From a virus: a stretch of 64,000 nt of DNA. Shown in pieces: positions 6,393-63,542 of this stretch. Position numbers and translations under genes: made by a program. Below the pieces are notes generated by a model. It did not search any database and had not been told where the DNA came from. It saw nothing but the letters and a program-made list of their open reading frames with translations. Position 1 is the stretch's first letter. Every line of letters starts with the position of its first letter. Where the stretch lies: IMG/VR virus record IMGVR_UViG_3300045988_051499; one strand, written 5' to 3'.

Positions 6393-7756
6393 GCTTCGTC
6401 TTCAATATTAGTTTCACCTTTGTCAAGTTCCTTTCCTTCCTTATCTAGGAATTTAAAACATTTAAGCTTAAATGCCTCAGATTTCATATTCTCAATCTTA
6501 ATAACTATTCCCTCATGAGGTACTTTGTTATCGCAAGATGGCGAAGTTCGCTCCATATAGAATCTAGCGTCGTTAGCTAATTTCTCCATGAAATTTTCGT
6601 TCCAGTGCTCAGCTTCGTTAAGTTCTGGATATAAGCTATTGGCAGTACCATAATACCACTCTTCTACTGGGATAAGACCTACCTTAGCACACCATTGTTG
6701 AACTTCCCTAGCACTAAATTCGTGAACTACACCATCAACATTAGTTAATGTTACACGATATATTCGCACTTTAAAGTGCTTTTCGTGAGTATACTGTTCT
6801 CCTTCTTTAGGAGGCATACAGCCATAGTCATAATTCTTTTGGATATAGCCACCATTAGGTAAGAAACCAACGATTTCATAATATGCAGTCATACCTTTAG
6901 ACAAGCAAGGTTTAACTATTTTATCAGCTTCCGCCCAAACGTCACACCCGTAGAATCCAGGAGTAACATTCTTATTATAGAACTGATTCTTTATTACCGT
7001 TCTAGAAGCATACAAATAGTCATACTTATTGAACTCTTCTCCAGTAAGCCATTTAGCGATTTTCTGTTTCCAGTTCAGGTCTTGTTTACAAAGCACATAA
7101 GCTGATATACCAGAAGTTCCGTGAATTTTCTCAGTAATACTGATTAAATCATTTGGATGAATTACATTAGGACATTTCTTAATAAGAGTTGTGTCGTAGT
7201 GGAATCTAAATTGTTCATCAATGACCTTGCTGATTCCTTTGACCTTCTTCGTTTGGTTGTTACGTGGTGTGCCACCTTGTCCTTGCTGTCTCTTGGGAAT
7301 GTACTTTTTGTTAATCCAAAATTCTTTGCCTTCATGTTCTACAATATCAAATTCAATACCTGCCTCAACTTCAATCTCCTTATTAGTTACAGACATTATA
7401 TAGTTCTGAAACTGGACTACCGGAAGAATAAAGCCTTCAGATAGCTCATTCTTTAATCTGATAGCTTTTACTCTACCATTATCCTCAAACATACCAGTTT
7501 GTTCTGGGTCATTGTTTAATTCTTTATGACGATAAAGATTACAATATCTCAGAAAATCTGGATTTATACAACAAGCTGTTGGAAAATATACATATAGTCC
7601 TGGCTGAGAATCAATCCCAGTAATGATATTGAAACCATCAATGGTACAACACTTAAGTCTAGTTACTTCTGGGTTACTGTGTTGTCTAAAATTCTTAATT
7701 TCTACAATCTTTGCCAAATAATTGACATTGGCTTTCTTACTTTTTGATAACTTCAT
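6389..7756 (-). CDS. RNA ligase (Rnl2-like nucleotidyltransferase)
   Basis: motif I EKIHGTS matches the T4 Rnl2 lysine-adenylate motif EKIHGTN; 455 aa with extra N-terminal domain. Confidence 0.55.
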   Translation of the reverse strand: MKLSKSKKANVNYLAKIVEIKNFRQHSNPEVTRLKCCTIDGFNIITGIDSQPGLYVYFPTACCINPDFLRYCNLYRHKELNNDPEQTGMFEDNGRVKAIRLKNELSEGFILPVVQFQNYIMSVTNKEIEVEAGIEFDIVEHEGKEFWINKKYIPKRQQGQGGTPRNNQTKKVKGISKVIDEQFRFHYDTTLIKKCPNVIHPNDLISITEKIHGTSGISAYVLCKQDLNWKQKIAKWLTGEEFNKYDYLYASRTVIKNQFYNKNVTPGFYGCDVWAEADKIVKPCLSKGMTAYYEIVGFLPNGGYIQKNYDYGCMPPKEGEQYTHEKHFKVRIYRVTLTNVDGVVHEFSAREVQQWCAKVGLIPVEEWYYGTANSLYPELNEAEHWNENFMEKLANDARFYMERTSPSCDNKVPHEGIVIKIENMKSEAFKLKCFKFLDKEGKELDKGETNIEDEA

Positions 7757-7767
7757 TTCTTATATTT

Positions 7768-8094
7768 TTAAAATGGTTCTTCAGTAGTTTCTATAAATTC
7801 ACACATAAAGTTAGCATATACTTGAGCCTGAATCTCATTAAATTCATTATTGTAATAGAACTGGAAAACATGAAACAGCTCATGATAAAATGTATTCCTA
7901 AGCTGTTCATCACTCATAGAGACGTTTCCTTCATATTCAGACTTTACTGTTCTCGCTAATTTAATAGTGTTAGTAGCATCACAGAAATAACCGTAATCGT
8001 TATTTGGAAGAGAATCTTCTATGATTACGGTTATTTCTTGATTAGCTATTTTAAACTTGTCTGGGAGCTTTCCTCCATTATTCAATTTCATCAT
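7768..8094 (-). CDS. hypothetical protein with HExxH motif
   Basis: HELFH possible zincin-like metallopeptidase motif; 108 aa. Confidence 0.3.
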   Translation of the reverse strand: MMKLNNGGKLPDKFKIANQEITVIIEDSLPNNDYGYFCDATNTIKLARTVKSEYEGNVSMSDEQLRNTFYHELFHVFQFYYNNEFNEIQAQVYANFMCEFIETTEEPF

Positions 8095-8569
8095 AATACA
8101 GTTTGTACAGACTATTTAAATAATCCACAAACTCCTGTTTGTTTTCAAAAAGATTATCTACATCAGGAAGCTCTACCTTATTCTTTCTTCCATCGTTGTC
8201 ATAATATTCTATACGTATCTGAGATACGCTATGGCACATGATATCACACATTCCAGCGAATATCAGAATATCATTTTCAGATAGATACTCCGACAACCAA
8301 GGAAAATCTTTGTTTTCATCTACATGGTGCCCATATCCTGCAGAGTTCCATCCTTTCTCAGAAAATCTTCCGGAATACTTACTAACATATGATAAAACCA
8401 ATAGGAGAAGTTCGTCTTCTTCAAACGATTCTTTATCAAATTCAATAGTATCTCTCATGTAATCACCATCGTTTGCATCGCACTCCACATATACTATATA
8501 CAATTCCCTATTATTCGGAATAATGGAGTATTTAGCTTTCTTCAAAATATCAAACTTTTTGTATTTCAT
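8078..8569 (-). CDS. hypothetical protein
   Basis: 163-aa ORF. Confidence 0.35.
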   Translation of the reverse strand: MKYKKFDILKKAKYSIIPNNRELYIVYVECDANDGDYMRDTIEFDKESFEEDELLLLVLSYVSKYSGRFSEKGWNSAGYGHHVDENKDFPWLSEYLSENDILIFAGMCDIMCHSVSQIRIEYYDNDGRKNKVELPDVDNLFENKQEFVDYLNSLYKLYYDEIE

Positions 8570-19288: not shown

Positions 19289-19642
19289 TTAAAATGGTAC
19301 ATAATTGTCGAGCAAAATCTGGAGCTGTTTGGGCATATCTTTCGGCTTAATACCAAAGTCAAGAAAAGTGGTACACCCATACATTAAATCCTCACAGATA
19401 GCCCCTAAAGACTTCAGAAAGGTATTTTTTTCTCCCCCCCTAAAATCTTTTCCGACTTTCAATAAAACATCATAACACGTTACCTTTTGACCTTTTTTCT
19501 TTAACTCATTAGTTATATAACAAGTAAGAGCAATACAGGCTAGTTTATCACCCATATTGCTCCCTAGGTAGTTTAAGGTAAAGTATTTTGAGTAAATTGA
19601 TGACAATTGTTCAAAGCTGATATTTTGAAGGTCGTTCATCAA
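19289..19642 (-). CDS. hypothetical protein
   Basis: 117-aa ORF. Confidence 0.35.
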   Translation of the reverse strand: MMNDLQNISFEQLSSIYSKYFTLNYLGSNMGDKLACIALTCYITNELKKKGQKVTCYDVLLKVGKDFRGGEKNTFLKSLGAICEDLMYGCTTFLDFGIKPKDMPKQLQILLDNYVPF

Positions 19643-20660
19643 GAGAATAGTCTCTATAACCTATCTGATAGGCTACATACTTCAAAAGAGTCTTGAACTC
19701 ATGAAATCCTTGTCGCAATTCCAAATAAGTAACTGGCCTAACCTTACTATAAAAGTTCGGAATGGTAGAAACTACTAAGTAATTAGCTTGCAATTTTGGA
19801 TTCTCCAAGTTATAGAACTTTTCAGCACACAACTTCAGAAGGTATAAATACATCGCAAACTCCCTACTATAGTGATACTTATTGATATTGGTATCAATTT
19901 CACTAACGATTTTTCCAATCGTCTTAATATCATTCACTACAATAGTGTTAGTTTCTGTATCTATTGTATAATTATCTAGTTTGGACTTCAGGTGTAAGAT
20001 AAACTTTTTTCCATTAGGGCAGGTCGCCTCCACGTCCAATAAAATAGCTTGCTCATTTTCAGAAATAGGTGTTTTAGTTATCCCTTCAGGATGTAAAAGT
20101 TTCTGCACTTGCTTATTGCTATTTAATGCTGATACACAAGACTTTACGATTTCTAGTGATTTGTTGTCAAGATATATAATTTCCTTATCTTGTGTTAAAT
20201 CAAATTCTTTTAGCTGTCTATTCTTCCAATAGTTAGTAGAAGCTTCAATCACAGATTTAGCTAGTTCCTTGGTAAGCTTTCCCTTATAATATTCGACCTT
20301 GTCTGATGCTTTCTTTACATCGTCAAATGTCACTTCTCCTTTTAGAAAAACGGGATAGAGTTCATTAGCCATTGCTCCTAACTTTGCAGTAGGTTTACCA
20401 ATGTCTTCTGACAGTTCAAAACTATCTGGCTGTAGCACCAATTCGTGTACAGCACTTCCAAGTTCCAGAGCAGAAGAGAAAGTATTTTTAAACCCAGTAA
20501 AGAATTTATCTGGATTACCATCCTGCCGAGGATTAATTAATCCTAAACGGGAATTACTAACGTATCCACTGTACTGTTCAGAAAAATATACCTTATCACT
20601 TATCTTCTCCAATCTTAGTGTGTCTAGCAGCGGCCTAAGCTTGATATCTTTTAATTCCAT
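19611..20660 (-). CDS. hypothetical protein (possible nuclease)
   Basis: 349 aa; weak D...E.K-like pattern (LLDVEATC...KFILHLKSK) only. Confidence 0.35.
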   Translation of the reverse strand: MELKDIKLRPLLDTLRLEKISDKVYFSEQYSGYVSNSRLGLINPRQDGNPDKFFTGFKNTFSSALELGSAVHELVLQPDSFELSEDIGKPTAKLGAMANELYPVFLKGEVTFDDVKKASDKVEYYKGKLTKELAKSVIEASTNYWKNRQLKEFDLTQDKEIIYLDNKSLEIVKSCVSALNSNKQVQKLLHPEGITKTPISENEQAILLDVEATCPNGKKFILHLKSKLDNYTIDTETNTIVVNDIKTIGKIVSEIDTNINKYHYSREFAMYLYLLKLCAEKFYNLENPKLQANYLVVSTIPNFYSKVRPVTYLELRQGFHEFKTLLKYVAYQIGYRDYSLDERPSKYQL

Positions 20661-21377: not shown

Positions 21378-21622
21378 AACTCGATTACTTCAATAACGTT
21401 CAATCGCTTCTTTATTAATAGCTCTAGGTCTTCTCTATCTACGTAGATGAAATGACTTTTCTTCAAATCAGATAAAGTGGAATCAAACTCAAGAGAGAAT
21501 GCTTCCATTGTTCTCCAATTCTTTTTAGCTGTCCTTAAATAAAGAGCATATTCATCATCAAAGTCATTAACTATACAATTTTTAATCGTAGGAACTGGAC
21601 CTTTAACTATTAACTTTTTCAT
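21374..21622 (-). CDS. hypothetical protein
   Basis: 82-aa ORF. Confidence 0.3.
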   Translation of the reverse strand: MKKLIVKGPVPTIKNCIVNDFDDEYALYLRTAKKNWRTMEAFSLEFDSTLSDLKKSHFIYVDREDLELLIKKRLNVIEVIEL

Positions 21623-22164
21623 TTCTTAAGCAATTCATAAAAATATTCTATAGGTATTACAGCTACTTGACCCACGCTAGGTGCCCCGTTCTTTCCTGCC
21701 TTCTTCCAACATATACAGAACGGTTTAGATTTATCACTACAAGCGTCCCTAATGTCAAAATAGTTTGGCATATTTTGGGTAAACTTGGCTTGGATATTAA
21801 CTGGAAGTTCATTGTTCATATCAACAATATCTATTTTGTCAGCATCAGCCAGTTTGTTCTGGCTTCTACTAGATACACATCCTTCATATCCAACATCTCT
21901 CAATTTATGAATTATTTCTAACTCATATTGAGAACCTTTTTGTTTACTTTTCTTCGCTTGCTTACTTCTTCTAACTGCAGGATCTGCCCATTCAAAGGTA
22001 ATTCCATCTTTCGATTTAGCTCCAGAGCCAGGTTTATTAGCCCTAGCTTTAATAGAGTTTATCTCTAAGCCAGTTACTTCTGAGGCTTCTTCTATAGTTT
22101 CGAAGGTTTTCTTTTCTCCATTTTTAAATGTAGCTGTAACACTTGTATTAGTCTACTTTTTCAT
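21619..22164 (-). CDS. putative DNA-binding nuclease-like protein with in-frame TAG at codon 4
   Basis: track ORF 21619..21903 starts at TTG, but the same frame stays open about 85 codons further upstream to ATG AAA AAG TAG (TAG at 22153..22155); C-terminal part has weak PD-(D/E)xK-like pattern DIVDMN..ELPVNIQAK. Confidence 0.4.
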
Positions 22165-22214: not shown

Positions 22215-22409
22215 CTAGTCAATAACGAGTTGCTCATTTATAAAGTCCAATAAGTCTTGTGTATTTACACACGCTCCGGCTGGAAGCTCACACCTATATA
22301 CTGTCTGTCTAGGAAATTTGGATATTAGTGCTTCTTCGTCTCCAGAAATAAAGTTTTCTCCAGTATCATTAATTACTACGTAAAATACCATTTCTTTTAA
22401 ATTTGTCAA
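22215..22409 (-). CDS. hypothetical protein
   Basis: 64-aa ORF. Confidence 0.3.
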   Translation of the reverse strand: MTNLKEMVFYVVINDTGENFISGDEEALISKFPRQTVYRCELPAGACVNTQDLLDFINEQLVID

Positions 22410-23388
22410 TAGTTAACTTAATCAACTCCTGAGTAGCTTTTCTTCCATAGTCCCTATAGTAATCACTTATATCCTTAGCTCCTGTGTTTCTGGGAATCAT
22501 TGATACGATTAATTCTGGATGTTGTTTCCTAATCTTATTAGTAAAACGAACTCCAGTTAGGTCATTATCATATAGCAACACAATGTATTTGAATCTCTGC
22601 TTTAATTCTTCTAAAACTTTGTCAGAAACAAACTGAGTCTCAGAGTTGGGAGCTATAGCTGGTATTCCTAAAGAATATAAACACATTACATCTTTCATAG
22701 ACTTAGTTATTACTACCAGTTTTCCAGTCTTAGCTAATTGTTTATAGCCTTGAATAGTCTTAGTAGAAACATTACCTATGAATCTAAACTCCTTTCGTTT
22801 TGGCATATAAATACGCCATTGCTCGATGTTCTCTTTCTTCCCAAAATAATATCCATAGATAGGACTATGTTGGGCAGACTGTGCATATATATTTCCATTT
22901 AAGAATACAGTACTACAACTGTATACCTTAAACCTATGTAGAATATCTTTAGTAATACCAAAGCTTCCCCACCACTTCAACTCAGGTTCTGAGAACTCCT
23001 TAGCTTCTATTTGGATGAAGGTTTGTTTTTCTTCCTCAAATTTCGGCTGGATTTTTACTGCAATCTTCTTTACAGGAGAATCCTTAGTATATCCAAAGTC
23101 CTTAGCTATAATCTTTAAAGCAGTGTGATAGTTACAATTATACTTTTCCATAACTACCCCTTCGAATGTCAAACATTTTCCGGAAGCAAAGTCCTTAAAA
23201 TATAAGTTTCCAGATTTTCCTCTAAAGAAACTGCAAGTGACATGACTGTCACTACGCAAAGGAGACTTAAACAATCCTTTCTTAACTGGGATGCCCAGAT
23301 AATAAGTCATGTAAGTCTCCTCATTGTTTTTAGATAGAAGAAATTCCTTAGTAATTTTTGGTTCAAAAGTATAATCAAACATGGTCAC
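22369..23388 (-). CDS. DNA primase (TOPRIM domain)
   Basis: TOPRIM-like IVLLYDNDLTG acidic motif; Cys/His-containing N-terminal region. Confidence 0.5.
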   Translation of the reverse strand: MTMFDYTFEPKITKEFLLSKNNEETYMTYYLGIPVKKGLFKSPLRSDSHVTCSFFRGKSGNLYFKDFASGKCLTFEGVVMEKYNCNYHTALKIIAKDFGYTKDSPVKKIAVKIQPKFEEEKQTFIQIEAKEFSEPELKWWGSFGITKDILHRFKVYSCSTVFLNGNIYAQSAQHSPIYGYYFGKKENIEQWRIYMPKRKEFRFIGNVSTKTIQGYKQLAKTGKLVVITKSMKDVMCLYSLGIPAIAPNSETQFVSDKVLEELKQRFKYIVLLYDNDLTGVRFTNKIRKQHPELIVSMIPRNTGAKDISDYYRDYGRKATQELIKLTIDKFKRNGILRSN

Positions 23389-45301: not shown

Positions 45302-45455
45302 AAAACTTCTTCTTCTATTAATCTAATATCCCAGTAATTTTGAGTTACCGCCCATTCTATAGCGTCTTTCTTCTCTAGAAAAAGAGGAGAGATCTTCTCA
45401 TAGTTTATAGGGACTTGCCCGTCATATGCCGTGGGAATTGAAATATAATATACTT

Positions 45456-48602: not shown

Positions 48603-48751
48603 AGATAAGTTTAATTAATTTTAATGACAGTGTGATATGCAAGCCATTACACCACAGCCTCGATATTTAATCCCAGTACCATATTTCTCTGAGGATTTTT
48701 ACTTGTTGTTTGATTTGTTCAGAAATTTTCTACATATTATTTACAGTGTTA

Positions 48752-48824
48752 GTTGGGAAGGGCAGAGTTGAACTGCCGTCTAGAAATTATCAGTTTCTTG
48801 TTCTAACCGTTAAACTACATCCCA
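48752..48824 (-). tRNA. tRNA-Ile(GAT)
   Basis: acceptor TGGGATG/CTTCCCA (one mismatch), anticodon arm AGAAA-CTGATAA-TTTCT, T arm GGCAG-TTCAACT-CTGCC. Confidence 0.65.
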
Positions 48825-48849
48825 ATCGGTTGAGCTATAGCCCTGTCAT

Positions 48850-49411
48850 GTGGACCTAACGGGAGTCGAACCCGTGTCCAAACAACCCTTATTACAAGGA
48901 TAACGTGCGTCTCATTTTTATTACATCAGCTAGTGAGTTCTAGCATTTAGATAGTTTTATTAGAAGAGCTGGATTCTTTACAGTAGAGGTGAACCAGCAG
49001 TCCTCCTACTAACTAATTTACAAACTACCAAACTGGGGGGCTGACTAGAAGTCATTCTTCCACCACTCCATTTACGTTGGAGAACGTCTATTTGTAGCCC
49101 ATAGATAGGCAGTGGAGATTTCAGCTCTACTAACCTTTGGCTTTCAAGTTAATGCATCTAAGCTTCACTGTAACCTGTAGGTACTATGATTCTTCCCTGA
49201 AGGTCTCGTTATAACACTTAGATACAAACCTCTTCTGTTTCTAGGTCTCTCCAGTAACCCGACTTGATTAATAGTGTCTATTAATAAGCCAGCAGCTTAG
49301 GCTGCCATTCTTACAGGTGCAATTTCTGCAGTTATTTGTTTTCTTCGTTTAAAGAGATTGCGCTCTACACGTCCTTATAATTCGTAATCGCCTGTCAAAT
49401 CCAAGTAGGCC
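48850..49411 (-). ncRNA. ssrA: tmRNA (ssrA), one-piece, unusually long
   Basis: 5' GGGCCTACTTGGATTTGACAGGCG (cf. E. coli GGGGCUGAUUCUGGAUUCGACGGG); 3' TTTGGAC-ACGGG-TTCGACT-CCCGT-TAGGTCC-A (cf. E. coli UUUCGGAC-GCGGG-UUCAACU-CCCGC-CAGCUCC-A-CCA); acceptor 7 bp with G3-U70; tag ORF GCA GAA ATT GCA CCT GTA AGA ATG GCA GCC TAA (AEIAPVRMAA) at 49296..49328 with resume codon 84 nt from the 5' end, out-of-frame TAA 2 nt upstream as in E. coli, and stop codon in a hairpin loop GCAGC-CTAA-GCTGC. Confidence 0.7.
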
Positions 49412-49454
49412 CATGTTCCAGTTTATCTCTGATTAGAAAACTGGAGAAAAGAAA

Positions 49455-51302: not shown

Positions 51303-51375
51303 TGGACACGCAGGGACTCGAACCCTATCTTCCGGTGTGCAAAACCAGCGCTCTAGCCATTTGAGCTAACGGCCC
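51303..51375 (-). tRNA. tRNA-Ala(TGC), atypical acceptor
   Basis: D arm GCTC-AAATGGCTA-GAGC, anticodon arm CTGGT-TTTGCAC-ACCGG, T arm TAGGG-TTCGAGT-CCCTG, G3-U70 present, but acceptor pairs 5-7 are mismatched; 3' end GTCCACA. Confidence 0.5.
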
Positions 51376-52299: not shown

Positions 52300-52724
52300 A
52301 TATTGGCAGCTACTTTACATCCGCTACCCAGGGATGCCTCTATCACCAGTGAGGCACGGACTATTCTAACCGTATAGCACGACTGGTTGGTAACGTCTCC
52401 AGACACGGCATTTAGACTGAAAATGTCGAAACAGTGATTTAAAGATTAAATAGGCTCTGGAAGATATTTCCAAATGTAGCCATACTATGATTTGGTTTTA
52501 TTCTTACAGCATCCTATAATATGACTCTATGCAGATTTATTGTCAGTAATTCCGTTATTAATTAACCATTCCTAAGCTTCTCTGGAACCAAAGAATACCT
52601 GTATAAAATTACCTGCTAAGTCATACTAAGCAATTAACTTTGCGTTACTTTTTCTAATTTTTATATTATTTGCCTTCAAAACTTTGTAAATAGTGTCTTT
52701 ACAGCACCCTATTTTTTCTTGTAT

Positions 52725-53081
52725 CTAAGAACTAGTATATCCCAATCTAGCTAATTCTACAATTTCACTATGATTGTATAGAATAGTGCCATCTCCTCCT
52801 TTAGAGGCATTGTACCCATTAGAACCATAAGTTCCTAGCTCTTTTATCCAATAGATTTCTCTTTCAGATAATTCAGAGTTACTATCTACATATTCCAATT
52901 CCTCTATCATAAAGTTCTCAACACCATACTTATTCATGGCATCATATAAAGGTCTTTTGTTGCATCTTTCTTTCTAAAAGTCATAACAATGTTCCTTCCA
53001 GCGCTCTTCTATAGAAGTAGTAGTTTTTCCTACGTATCGCTTGCTATTAATTAAATTTGTAATGCAATAAATATATGCCAT
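52725..53081 (-). CDS. GIY-YIG homing endonuclease with in-frame TAG
   Basis: MAYIYCITNLINSKRYVGKTTTSIEERWKEHCYDF-TAG-KERCNKRPLYDAMNKYGVENFMIEELEY...EIYWIKELGTYGSNGYN is co-linear with the I-TevI catalytic domain; single in-frame TAG at 52974..52976 with no frameshift. Track splits it into 52974..53237 and 52725..52937; the first ORF's N-terminus is spurious translation of the adjacent tRNA. Confidence 0.5.
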
Positions 53082-58430: not shown

Positions 58431-58507
58431 TAGGGACGGTGGGGTTTGAACCCACGTGCGACCAACTACCCTTTCTACAAGGTATAAGCTTGAGGGGATA
58501 CGTCCCT
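58431..58507 (-). other. tRNA-like element lacking a D arm (acceptor plus T arm minihelix with internal hairpin)
   Basis: perfect 7-bp acceptor AGGGACG/CGTCCCT, T arm GTGGG-TTCAAAC-CCCAC, A73; internal hairpin CCCT-CAAG-CTTATAC-CTTG-..-AGGG with a 7-nt anticodon-like loop; no D stem can be formed. Confidence 0.35.
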
Positions 58508-59260: not shown

Positions 59261-59419
59261 TTATATAATTTAGAAATACAGCCTTACTACCCCTATGTTC
59301 CTAGTTATTCTTTAGCTAGCTTTAGATTATTACTAGGTAATACCGCAACGGATTTATTCAGCTGACTTTACCGCCTCTTGGTATGCAAGGCTAGGTCTCC
59401 CTAGCGAAGCTGTATTTAG

Positions 59420-59491
59420 TTGGGCTACCAGGACTCGAACCTGGACTCTCAGAACCAAAATCTGATGTGACTACCATTACACCATAGCCCA
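59420..59491 (-). tRNA. tRNA-Gln(TTG)
   Basis: perfect acceptor TGGGCTA/TAGCCCA, anticodon arm TCAGA-TTTTGGT-TCTGA, T arm CCAGG-TTCGAGT-CCTGG. Confidence 0.8.
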
Positions 59492-63062: not shown

Positions 63063-63542
63063 TCAGCCAAATACACAAATCATAGAAGAAATAAAGAATA
63101 CTGCGCCACCGACTACACTTATCCATCCGCCAGCATCTTCATCGTCTTTAGATAGTTTTCCTCTTCCAGTTATTAGTAAAAATAGAGATATTCCTAGCAG
63201 TAGTATACCTATTACGACTCCAGCTATCTCCTTATATAGTAATTTCCATACTACAATAGTTATCGCTGTTTGTCCTAGATTAGATTCAGATATTCTTATA
63301 GCCGAATCTTCAACTGCTTTTAGTGTCTCATTTACTGCAACTCCAATCTCCTTTCCGAGACTTGCATATTCAGATACTTCTTTGATTTCTCCTTTTATAG
63401 CCTTCTCGGTAGTTATTTTCTCGATTTGGGTTCTCGTCTCTCCAGGCAACCTATCATAATCTTCTTGAGATATGGTTATTTGAGAGAATGAGGCTACACT
63501 CATAAAGAGCATAGCCACAATAAGCATTAAAAATTTCTTCAT
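63063..63542 (-). CDS. hypothetical membrane/secreted protein
   Basis: signal peptide and C-terminal TM helices. Confidence 0.35.
   Translation of the reverse strand: MKKFLMLIVAMLFMSVASFSQITISQEDYDRLPGETRTQIEKITTEKAIKGEIKEVSEYASLGKEIGVAVNETLKAVEDSAIRISESNLGQTAITIVVWKLLYKEIAGVVIGILLLGISLFLLITGRGKLSKDDEDAGGWISVVGGAVFFISSMICVFG

What the first reader, a model, noticed from the sequence alone, without database searches (positions are those of the whole stretch)
21619..22164. Second in-frame TAG: ATG AAA AAG TAG followed by about 175 stop-free codons
The ORF caller starts 21619..21903 at a TTG, yet the same frame runs open for about 85 more codons upstream with no ATG, GTG or TTG, back to ATG-AAA-AAG-TAG (TAG at 22153..22155). 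In 30-35% GC sequence, about 85 consecutive sense codons would occur by chance well under 1% of the time, so TAG is probably decoded here too. The product, an N-terminal putative DNA-binding region plus a C-terminal nuclease-like region, resembles the mobile-endonuclease class of the GIY-YIG case. Two independent in-frame TAGs in one window strengthen the case for recoding or suppression.
Basis: seen in the sequence. Interest (0 to 1): 0.7.

Follow-up and report, generated by a model that had tools for sequence, protein, structure and literature searches.

The report
Conserved amber codon gating phage nuclease
The in-frame TAG is real and is read as glutamine by suppressor tRNAs of this amber-recoded gut crAss-like phage; unusually, this one stop codon at the very start of a DNA-junction nuclease gene is kept in nearly every relative examined, which suggests it works as a switch on when or how much nuclease is made.

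Summary
ATG-AAA-AAG-TAG (TAG at 22153-22155, minus strand) is followed by 177 sense codons, with no ATG/GTG/TTG for the first 83.

The window comes from a ~188-kb Zeta-group crAss-like phage of the human gut. Near-identical genomes carry two amber-suppressor tRNAs just beyond the window. Their late genes are full of in-frame TAGs (15 in the terminase) that alternate with CAA/CAG, so TAG means Gln. This recoding is already published.

The gene is intact. Its product has an N-terminal NUMOD-like DNA-binding domain and a C-terminal Hjc-type (Holliday-junction-resolvase-like) PD-(D/E)XK nuclease. It always lies directly or almost directly downstream of the primase gene, so it is a core gene, not a mobile endonuclease. 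The 83 codons upstream of the TTG are under strong purifying selection (28 synonymous, 0 non-synonymous changes against one relative).

The new point is that the early gene block is otherwise almost TAG-free, yet this gene keeps one TAG at codon 3-6 in about 98 of the 99 loci from relatives whose start I read, down to 47% identity. In one lineage it has moved to codon 10. None of 68 TAG sites in the terminase is invariant. The best reading is a selected amber gate that ties nuclease synthesis to the phage's code switch. That role is inferred, not shown.

The parts
21619..22164 (-). Complete nuclease gene: 181 codons (M-K-K-[UAG]-177 aa) plus TGA stop
   Evidence: Homologues of 181-185 aa share this start. 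dN/dS is 0-0.2 over both halves.
22162..22164 (-). ATG start codon, preceded by an A-rich leader
   Evidence: The M-(A/G/V/R/S)-K-K-type N-terminus with an ATG is conserved in all relatives.
22153..22155 (-). In-frame amber codon (codon 4), the conserved 'gate'
   Evidence: TAG at codon 4/5 in 49 of 49 distinct DNA sequences. Also found at codon 3, 5 or 6 in further lineages. Relocated to codon 10 in L098/L099.
21982..22152 (-). N-terminal DNA-binding domain (residues 1-57 after the TAG), NUMOD-like
21622..21936 (-). C-terminal Hjc-like PD-(D/E)XK nuclease domain. Predicted catalytic residues: E77 (21922-21924), D108 (21829-21831), Q121 (21790-21792), K123 (21784-21786)
21901..21903 (-). TTG used by the mechanical ORF caller; an internal Leu codon (L84), not the start
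   Evidence: Starting here would remove the DNA-binding domain and catalytic E77.
22369..23388 (-). Primase (Toprim) gene; the nuclease gene lies directly or almost directly downstream of it. In most relatives its stop overlaps the nuclease start
   Evidence: Pfam Toprim_2. Synteny. Overlap seen in L002.
22215..22409 (-). 64-aa ORF inserted between primase and nuclease in this sub-lineage only; it ends in TAG, with a TAA 11 codons later
19611..20660 (-). Exonuclease (PHROG 412, exonuclease VIII-like), a conserved downstream neighbour in the recombination module
52446..53081 (-). GIY-YIG endonuclease gene with six in-frame TAGs (low coordinates 52974, 52725, 52626, 52572, 52527, 52485). This is evidence from the window itself that TAG is decoded
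   Evidence: The Pfam GIY-YIG match (E 6e-13) spans the first TAG.
59419..59491 (-). Phage tRNA-Gln(TTG), the closest relative of suppressor tRNA supB(CTA) found just outside the window in relatives

Best explanation
The gene is an intact, conserved core gene of a ~188-kb amber-recoded (TAG = Gln) Zeta-group crAss-like phage. Translation starts at ATG 22162-22164. The UAG at codon 4 is decoded, most likely as glutamine, by phage-encoded amber-suppressor tRNAs. The product is 181 aa: a NUMOD-like DNA-binding domain fused to an Hjc-type PD-(D/E)XK nuclease, probably the phage's branched-DNA or Holliday-junction nuclease. I put this part at about 0.9. The further step is inferred, at about 0.55. 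The gene sits in the early/replication block, which is otherwise nearly TAG-free, and most often starts within a few bases of the primase gene's stop (in L002 the two overlap). Without a suppressor tRNA, a ribosome would release the tripeptide Met-Lys-Lys and make no nuclease. Full-length enzyme would appear only once, and only as far as, the suppressor tRNAs are active. The amber codon would therefore be a selected translational gate, acting as a timer and/or attenuator. T4 reaches a similar result for endonucleases embedded in early transcripts with hairpins that hide the ribosome-binding site.
For: Shown:
- The anatomy, and no alternative start for 83 codons.
- Purifying selection on the TAG-to-TTG stretch: 28 synonymous and 0 non-synonymous differences against L002, dN/dS 0-0.2 against more distant relatives, with synonymous sites near saturation.
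- TAG is decoded in this phage. The window's GIY-YIG gene has six in-frame TAGs. Contigs with an identical nuclease gene (L082/L016, L092/L011) carry supA and supB with CTA anticodons, and supB is present in 17 of 17 relatives. supB resembles the phage tRNA-Gln.
- The terminase has 11-31 in-frame TAGs in all relatives, and TAG columns alternate mainly with CAA/CAG.
- Within this gene family, sporadic extra TAGs fall exactly on Gln65 and Gln98.
- Metaproteomics has shown TAG = Gln in crAss-like phages (PMC9523058, abstract seen).
- The gate is conserved. TAG is at codon 4/5 in 49 of 49 distinct sequences, against 296 CAA/CAG and 3 TAG at the gene's other Gln sites. It is at codon 3-6 in the further lineages L147-L150, in MT835492.1 (47% identity) and in 23 of 23 loci of the P0110 lineage.
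- As a null comparison, 0 of 68 TAG-bearing columns in the terminase are invariant across 46 sequences, and only about 12 of 55 are invariant even among 17 close relatives.
- The gate has relocated. In L098/L099 codon 4 is GAG and a new TAG sits at codon 10, a Ser/Lys position.
- Synteny is conserved.
- Fold and catalytic residues.

Precedent: in-frame recoded stops have been proposed to delay a homing endonuclease that lies in an early gene (Borges et al. preprint). T4 silences endonuclease genes translationally on early transcripts (PMC2988022).
Against: - The window itself holds no suppressor tRNA. The best match to its right end is only 93% identical, so the presence of supA/supB in this exact genome is inferred.
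- There are no expression, proteomic or timing data.
- The P0114 group (six of the 120 listed protein clusters) has no Gln/TAG near the start in the protein sequences. The DNA was read only for P0114 (MAKKKLELNESV). Its contig was called with TAG as sense, so that phage is probably also recoded. The gate is therefore dispensable.
- supA lies in the early-block orientation, so suppression might already be on early, which would favour attenuation over timing.
- The conservation statistics are not corrected for phylogeny.
- The third catalytic motif is Q-x-K rather than E-x-K.
- Junction cleavage has not been tested.
Confidence: 0.85

Rival explanations
1. Ordinary recoded codon. The TAG is read as Gln by the suppressor tRNA but is just one of hundreds of TAG codons in a code-15 phage and has no regulatory role. 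Its conservation reflects shared ancestry or a local mutational or context constraint.
For: The whole clade is amber-recoded. TAG swaps freely with CAA/CAG elsewhere. Sporadic TAGs occur at other Gln sites of this gene. The P0114 lineage lacks the TAG.
Against: The TAG is retained in 49 of 49 distinct sequences plus four further lineages, through saturated synonymous divergence, whereas 0 of 68 terminase TAG columns are invariant. Where it was lost at codon 4 it was regained at codon 10, a non-Gln position. The residue itself is not conserved (Glu or Leu where the TAG is absent), so the codon is conserved rather than the amino acid. The surrounding early block avoids TAG. Overlap with the primase gene is not the cause: the TAG persists where the primase stops before the ATG (L053/L054) and where a 64-aa ORF intervenes.
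Confidence: 0.3
2. Mini-ORF plus downstream initiation. ATG-AAA-AAG-TAG is a three-codon leader ORF, and the nuclease is initiated separately just after it at a non-canonical codon or by re-initiation, without suppression.
For: In some lineages the codon right after the TAG is TTG or GTG (L150, L226-type), and standard-code callers start there (the 'MNTSV' proteins).
Against: In most lineages, including the window, the next codon is ACT, GCT, ACA, CTT, GTA, GCA, TTA or GAC, none of them a canonical start, and none is conserved. Some variants carry further in-frame TAGs at Gln65 or Gln98 and so need suppression anyway. The phage demonstrably decodes TAG. I know of no bacterial precedent for start-codon-independent re-initiation (own knowledge).
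Confidence: 0.05
3. Pseudogene or truncated gene. A nonsense mutation inactivated the gene, or only the 94-aa product starting at TTG 21903 is made.
For: A standard-code ORF caller gives only 21619-21903.
Against: dN/dS is about 0 upstream of the TTG. The TAG is conserved rather than sporadic. The TTG product would lack the DNA-binding domain and the invariant E77. There are no frameshifts or other stops in about 100 loci.
Confidence: 0.02
4. The gene is a free-standing mobile homing endonuclease like the GIY-YIG gene, and its TAG limits its toxicity as proposed for intron endonucleases.
Against: The gene keeps the same position, between the primase gene and the genes upstream of the exonuclease, in all 21 loci checked, with divergence that tracks its neighbours (primase 49-100% identity, nuclease 50-100%). 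This is the opposite of the patchy distribution of homing endonucleases. The best structural matches of the catalytic domain are Holliday-junction resolvases.
Confidence: 0.08

Closest known systems
Amber (TAG to Gln, 'code 15') stop-codon recoding in crAss-like phages, especially the Zeta group (Yutin et al. 2021, PMC7886860; Peters et al. 2022, PMC9523058; Zeta-group survey 2025, PMC12386605)
   Same: Genome of about 185-190 kb with PolA closest to crAss-like phages. Large tRNA array. CTA-anticodon suppressor tRNAs. Late block full of in-frame TAGs and a replication block compatible with the standard code.
   Different: In the passages I read, those papers treat TAG as a bulk property of late genes. 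None of those passages mentions a single, position-conserved amber codon in a replication-block gene.
Recoding as a regulator of late or lytic genes, including in-frame stops in a group I intron endonuclease inserted in an early gene of Agate phages (Borges et al., bioRxiv 10.1101/2021.08.26.457843)
   Same: The same logic: a nuclease gene lying among early genes cannot be translated until the code switch occurs. The window's GIY-YIG gene fits this directly.
   Different: That case is a mobile endonuclease with statistically enriched TGA codons. This case is a core, syntenic nuclease with exactly one stop codon fixed at codon 3-6, kept across 47-100% identity and relocated once. That is site-specific evolutionary evidence rather than codon enrichment.
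Translational silencing of endonuclease genes on early transcripts in phage T4: RBS-sequestering hairpins for I-TevI/II/III, segB and mobE. PMC2988022 also lists Barth et al. 1988 on the regulation of gene 49 (endonuclease VII); that gene 49 is controlled in the same way is from my own knowledge, not from the passages read
   Same: A similar functional outcome: a DNA-cleaving enzyme encoded inside early or middle transcripts is made only late.
   Different: The mechanism differs. T4 uses RNA structure plus late promoters; here the block would be a stop codon relieved by a suppressor tRNA. There is no sequence relationship.
Archaeal-type Holliday-junction resolvases Hjc/Hje, and phage homologues such as the Thermus phage 15-6 Hjc (PDB 1gef, 1ob8, 1hh1, 2wcw, 7bgs)
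   Same: PD-(D/E)XK fold with aligned E...D...(E/Q)-x-K residues.
   Different: It has an extra N-terminal NUMOD-like DNA-binding domain and a basic linker. It has Gln instead of Glu in the third motif. There is no Pfam Hjc match. The sequence-level match to PDB Hjc is only marginal (E about 0.3).

Membership tests
Amber-recoded (TAG=Gln) crAss-like phage, Zeta group | In-frame TAGs in conserved late genes such as the large terminase | tested here: met
   The terminase-like 786-aa gene has 15 TAGs in contigs that carry an identical nuclease gene, and 11-31 TAGs in all relatives down to 68% identity. The test was done on relatives because the late block lies outside the window.
Amber-recoded (TAG=Gln) crAss-like phage, Zeta group | [quoted passage not shown] | tested here: met
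   supB(CTA) is present in 17 of 17 relatives. supA is CTA in about half and TTA in the rest. None lies inside the window itself, so presence in this exact genome is inferred.
Amber-recoded (TAG=Gln) crAss-like phage, Zeta group | TAG is equivalent to Gln codons | tested here: met
   TAG columns alternate chiefly with CAA/CAG. Extra TAGs in this gene fall at Gln65 and Gln98. supB resembles tRNA-Gln(TTG). Direct proof of the inserted amino acid is not possible with these tools.
Amber-recoded (TAG=Gln) crAss-like phage, Zeta group | Phylogenetic placement within Crassvirales/Zeta (TerL tree, signature genes) | tested here: inconclusive
   PolA's best hits are crAss-like phages at 45-52% identity. 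No tree was built.
Hjc-type Holliday-junction resolvase (PD-(D/E)XK) | Restriction-endonuclease-like fold closest to Hjc/Hje | tested here: met
Hjc-type Holliday-junction resolvase (PD-(D/E)XK) | Catalytic E ... D ... E-x-K residues | tested here: inconclusive
   E77, D108 and K123 are invariant and align with Hjc E12, D42 and K57, but the position of E55 is an invariant Gln (Q121).
Hjc-type Holliday-junction resolvase (PD-(D/E)XK) | Significant sequence-profile membership | tested here: inconclusive
   No Pfam Hjc hit at E <= 1. PDB profile hits to Hjc have E 0.27-1. PHROG 244, labelled 'RusA-like Holliday junction resolvase', matches at E 4e-10.
Hjc-type Holliday-junction resolvase (PD-(D/E)XK) | Dimeric enzyme that cleaves four-way junctions | not testable with these tools
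   Needs biochemistry.
Free-standing homing endonuclease | Sporadic presence or variable insertion site among close relatives | tested here: not met
   The gene sits between the primase gene and the genes upstream of the exonuclease in all 21 loci examined, across 50-100% identity.
Free-standing homing endonuclease | NUMOD/IENR-type DNA-binding module | tested here: met
Pyrrolysine or other context-dependent UAG decoding | Pyl machinery, or a conserved downstream RNA element or context | tested here: not met
   ARAGORN's label 'tRNA-Pyl' is only its name for a CTA anticodon, and supB is tRNA-Gln-like. The codons before and after the TAG vary: AAG, AAA, GTA, ACA or AAT before; A, G, C or T as the first base after. 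Pyl genes were not searched for.

The most novel reading that the evidence does not exclude
The amber codon at the start of this nuclease gene is a dedicated, positively selected translational gate. It is one stop codon, placed where premature termination costs only a tripeptide, and it couples production of a branch-cutting nuclease encoded among early genes to the phage's own switch of genetic code. If so, it is site-specific evolutionary evidence that stop-codon recoding is used for gene regulation: the codon is conserved while the amino acid is not, and it was regained six codons downstream after loss. It would also offer a one-codon experimental handle for testing that hypothesis.
Probability: 0.55. 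Interest if true: 0.6.

Novelty: new variant of a known kind. Interest (0 to 1): 0.5.

Why it matters
That gut crAss-like phages read TAG as glutamine is established. Whether this recoding regulates genes is still a hypothesis, resting mainly on the enrichment of recoded stops in late and lysis genes. This gene gives a sharper kind of evidence. It has a single amber codon in an otherwise standard-code early block. That codon is kept across very deep divergence while ordinary TAG sites turn over quickly, and in one lineage it has moved rather than been lost. A one-codon change (TAG to CAG) in a cultured Zeta phage, or in a reporter, would test the idea directly.

There is also a practical consequence. 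Standard-code pipelines truncate or miss this protein (JGI calls of 152-165 aa), and database 'Q' residues can hide TAG codons.

Tried and rejected
- Sequencing error. Rejected: identical TAG in independent assemblies.
- Frameshifting on A-AAA-AAG. Considered and rejected from the sequence: the long ORF is in frame with the ATG, and the -1 and +1 frames hit stops within a few codons.
- Other early genes with an ATG...TAG...long-ORF arrangement. A scan gave 18 candidates. The helicase case (TAG 28632) is not conserved and lies upstream of the true ATG. The rest have a canonical start 1-28 codons after the TAG, against 83 for the nuclease gene. Only the helicase and two other cases (TAGs at 45323 and 6173) were displayed, and only the helicase was compared across relatives; the others were not examined individually.
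- An apparent in-frame TAG in the exonuclease gene of L100. This is over-extension by the gene caller.
- A relative with a suppressor tRNA but no recoded late genes, which would have made this gene the suppressor's only target and explained the 'non-functioning suppressor tRNAs' of PMC12386605. Not found: every accessible relative has a heavily recoded terminase. The 'no suppression' genomes of that paper are not in the searchable collections.
- IMG/VR relatives of the TAG-less P0114 lineage. None found, so whether that phage recodes its late genes rests only on the caller's use of TAG as sense.
- Look-up of the window protein 63063-63542. Not on record.
- ARAGORN finds no tmRNA at the Rfam tmRNA hit.
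- Pfam gives no significant family for the nuclease.

Full report
**1. The observation**

On the minus strand the sequence reads ATG (22162-22164), AAA, AAG, TAG (22153-22155). After the TAG come 177 sense codons, ending at TGA 21619-21621. The mechanical ORF list begins the ORF at TTG 21901-21903. The 83 codons between the TAG and that TTG contain no ATG, GTG or TTG.

From the strand's base composition, a stop-free run of 83 codons has probability about 0.001, and a run of 177 about 6e-7. No other coding-strand ORF of at least 100 codons in the window has such a start-less leader.

An independent GenBank scaffold from Mexican faecal samples (MT836281.1) is 100% identical over the whole gene, TAG included, while the flanks differ.

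**2. What the window is**

All genes lie on the minus strand. They encode replication and nucleotide-metabolism functions: PolA, DNA and RNA ligases, NrdD, helicases, primase, Nampt and 19-21 tRNAs.

PolA's nearest relatives are crAss-like phages at 45-52% identity. Matching contigs are 180-193 kb long. Size, PolA, GC content of about 36%, the large tRNA set and amber recoding all fit the amber-recoded members of the 'Zeta' group of crAss-like phages (PMC7886860; PMC12386605).

**3. Is TAG decoded in this phage?**

Yes. Four lines of evidence support this.

- Inside the window, a GIY-YIG endonuclease gene (52446-53081) is intact apart from six in-frame TAGs. The Pfam GIY-YIG domain match (E 6e-13) runs straight across the first of them.
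- About 6-8 kb beyond the window's right end, relatives carry two suppressor tRNAs. These include the contigs whose nuclease gene is 100% identical to the window's (IMGVR_UViG_3300007184_000001 and 3300029245_000003). supA lies in the orientation of the replication block. supB lies just after the first gene of the divergent block.
- supB(CTA) is present in 17 of 17 relatives and clearly resembles the phage's own tRNA-Gln(TTG).
- The divergent, late block is full of in-frame TAGs. There are four in its first gene, 15 in the 786-aa terminase-like gene, and 11-31 in that gene in every relative down to 68% identity. Across relatives, TAG columns alternate mainly with CAA/CAG.

A more distant, 121-kb relative (MT835492.1) shows the same split. 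Most large ORFs in its plus-strand replication block have no TAG, and none has more than five. Its minus-strand block carries up to 128 TAGs in one ORF.

All of this is the published phenomenon. Proteomic proof of TAG = Gln in crAss-like phages exists (PMC9523058, abstract).

**4. Is this gene translated through the TAG?**

The stretch between the TAG and the TTG evolves as protein. Against L002 it shows 28 synonymous and 0 non-synonymous differences (dS about 0.9). Against more distant relatives dN/dS is 0.06-0.2, with synonymous sites close to saturation.

A protein started at the TTG would lose the whole N-terminal domain and the invariant Glu77.

Database homologues are 181-185 aa long and begin MKKQT..., MAKKQT..., MKKKQL... 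and similar. The 'Q' is the gene caller's translation of TAG: the look-up reports that the DNA does not translate to the protein under table 11, and the DNA shows TAG.

Proteins that begin further downstream (JGI 152-165 aa; 'MNTSV...' forms) are most simply explained as standard-code calls that start after the TAG, sometimes at a TTG or GTG that directly follows it. I inferred this from the protein sequences and from other loci rather than from their own DNA.

**5. The unexpected part: the TAG itself is conserved**

- In 71 loci holding 49 distinct DNA sequences, TAG sits at codon 4 or 5 in every one. The gene's other Gln positions hold 296 CAA/CAG and only three sporadic TAGs, exactly at Gln65 and Gln98.
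- Further lineages agree. M-R-K-K-TAG and M-K-TAG occur in L147-L150. M-G-K-T-TAG occurs in 23 of 23 loci of the P0110 lineage, whose terminase is only 68-74% identical to the window clade's. M-V-K-K-TAG occurs at 50% identity. M-S-K-S-N-TAG occurs in MT835492.1 at 47% identity.
- The flanking codons vary, and so does the base after the TAG, so no fixed sequence context is being preserved.
- Overlap with the primase stop codon, seen in L002-type genomes, is not the cause. The TAG persists where the primase ends before the ATG (L053/L054) and where a 64-aa ORF intervenes, as in the window.
- As a null comparison, 68 alignment columns of the terminase from 46 distinct relatives (minimum identity 65%) hold at least one TAG, and none is TAG in all sequences; the maximum is 91%. 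Even among 17 close relatives, about 43 of 55 TAG columns in four late genes are polymorphic with CAA/CAG.
- In one lineage (P0048; L098/L099) codon 4 has become GAG and a new TAG sits at codon 10. Other homologues have Ser or Lys at that position. Extra TAGs in this family occur at about 3.5e-4 per codon, so a chance gain within the first ten codons is unlikely (roughly 0.3%, a post hoc estimate).
- The P0114 group (six of the 120 listed protein clusters) has no Gln/TAG near the start. I read the DNA only for P0114, which begins MAKKKLELNESV. Its contig was called with TAG as sense, so that phage is probably also recoded.

The amino acid at the site is evidently unimportant, since Glu or Leu replaces it where the TAG is absent. 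What is conserved is the stop codon.

**6. What the protein is**

An AlphaFold model built on 25 homologues has mean pLDDT 86.

- A profile search of the PDB aligns the invariant E77, D108, Q121 and K123 with Hjc E12, D42, E55 and K57.
- PHROG 244, annotated as a Holliday-junction resolvase, matches at E 4e-10.

The gene order DnaB ... p231 - primase - nuclease - small ORFs - orf172 - exonuclease is kept in all 21 loci checked. Divergence of the nuclease tracks that of its neighbours. This is therefore a vertically inherited recombination or replication-module gene, not a mobile homing endonuclease, although it shares a DNA-binding module with that class.

**7. How it most likely works**

Shown: the phage decodes UAG, the gene is intact and under purifying selection, and the stop codon is conserved.

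Inferred: early in infection, or whenever suppressor tRNA is scarce, ribosomes starting at the ATG terminate after Met-Lys-Lys. That start most often lies within a few bases of the primase gene's stop, and in L002 the two overlap. Full-length nuclease is then made only when, and only in proportion as, supA/supB compete successfully with release factor 1.

This would delay or limit an enzyme that cuts branched DNA until replication intermediates have to be resolved for packaging. T4 reaches a similar result with hairpins that sequester the ribosome-binding site on early transcripts of its endonuclease genes (PMC2988022). Borges et al. proposed the stop-codon version of this idea for an intron endonuclease in Agate phages.

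I cannot tell timing from attenuation. supA lies in the early-block orientation, so suppression might begin early.

**8. Novelty and verdict**

A single, position-conserved and once-relocated amber codon in a core early-block nuclease gene was not described in the papers I could search. It is a modest but real extension: a new variant of a known kind. It matters mostly because it gives the 'recoding regulates expression' hypothesis a clean, testable case.

Limits:
- There are no expression data.
- Suppressor tRNAs were seen only in relatives; the window ends about 6 kb short of them, and its right end matches the best relative at only 93%.
- The conservation statistics are not corrected for phylogeny.
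- The function of the nuclease is inferred from its fold.

Noticed in passing
window 48848-49412 (-), inside the ORF-free gap 48603-49454: Rfam tmRNA (RF00023) match covering the full model, 70.4 bits, E 2.4e-25. ARAGORN does not call a tmRNA there. A phage-encoded tmRNA in a stop-codon-recoded phage could matter for ribosome rescue. The Zeta-group survey does not mention one.
   Followed up: partly
L078:2906-2976, L079:2307-2378, L080:203-273, L081-L097 at about 6900-8270 (about 6-8 kb beyond the window's right end): The supA suppressor-tRNA locus varies between otherwise similar genomes. The anticodon is CTA (amber) in about 8, TTA (ochre type, expected to read UAA and UAG) in about 9, and one genome (L093) has a shifted loop that reads as TAA. 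TAA is the phage's main stop codon (62 of 98 ORFs), so an ochre-type suppressor is unexplained.
   Followed up: partly
window 52446-53081 (-): The GIY-YIG endonuclease gene (211 aa) lies between tRNA-Met and tRNA-Cys and has six in-frame TAGs, not one. About half of its Gln-equivalent codons are TAG, as in late genes, although it lies in the early block.
   Followed up: partly
window 22215-22409 (-): A 64-aa ORF lies between the primase and the nuclease gene in this sub-lineage only; in most relatives the nuclease start lies within a few bases of the primase stop or overlaps it. The ORF ends in TAG, with TAA 11 codons later, so it would gain an 11-residue tail when TAG is suppressed.
   Followed up: no
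window 51303-51375 (-) and 58431-58507 (-): Two extra tRNA-like Rfam hits are missing from ARAGORN's default output. With relaxed settings they read as tRNA-Ala(TGC) and tRNA-Ile(TAT). Neither is a suppressor.
   Followed up: yes
L196, L204, L216, L220, L221 (terminase loci of relatives): In some relatives the terminase gene is interrupted by insertions of 0.3-1.2 kb containing TAA/TGA stops. This fits the high intron and intein density reported for this phage group.
   Followed up: no
Database proteins P0001, P0078, P0106, P0107 and the 'MNTSV...' forms: Public gene calls for this family are inconsistent. Standard-code pipelines truncate the protein to 152-177 aa. Code-15 callers write Q for TAG and can fuse neighbouring ORFs (P0001, 240 aa). 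A 'Q' in such databases can therefore hide a stop codon.
   Followed up: yes
window 21619-22164 compared with MT836281.1 (L001:8620-9165): The nuclease gene is 100% identical between the two assemblies, while the 50-250 nt on each side carry six substitutions. This may reflect recent recombination or sweep of this segment, or chance.
   Followed up: no
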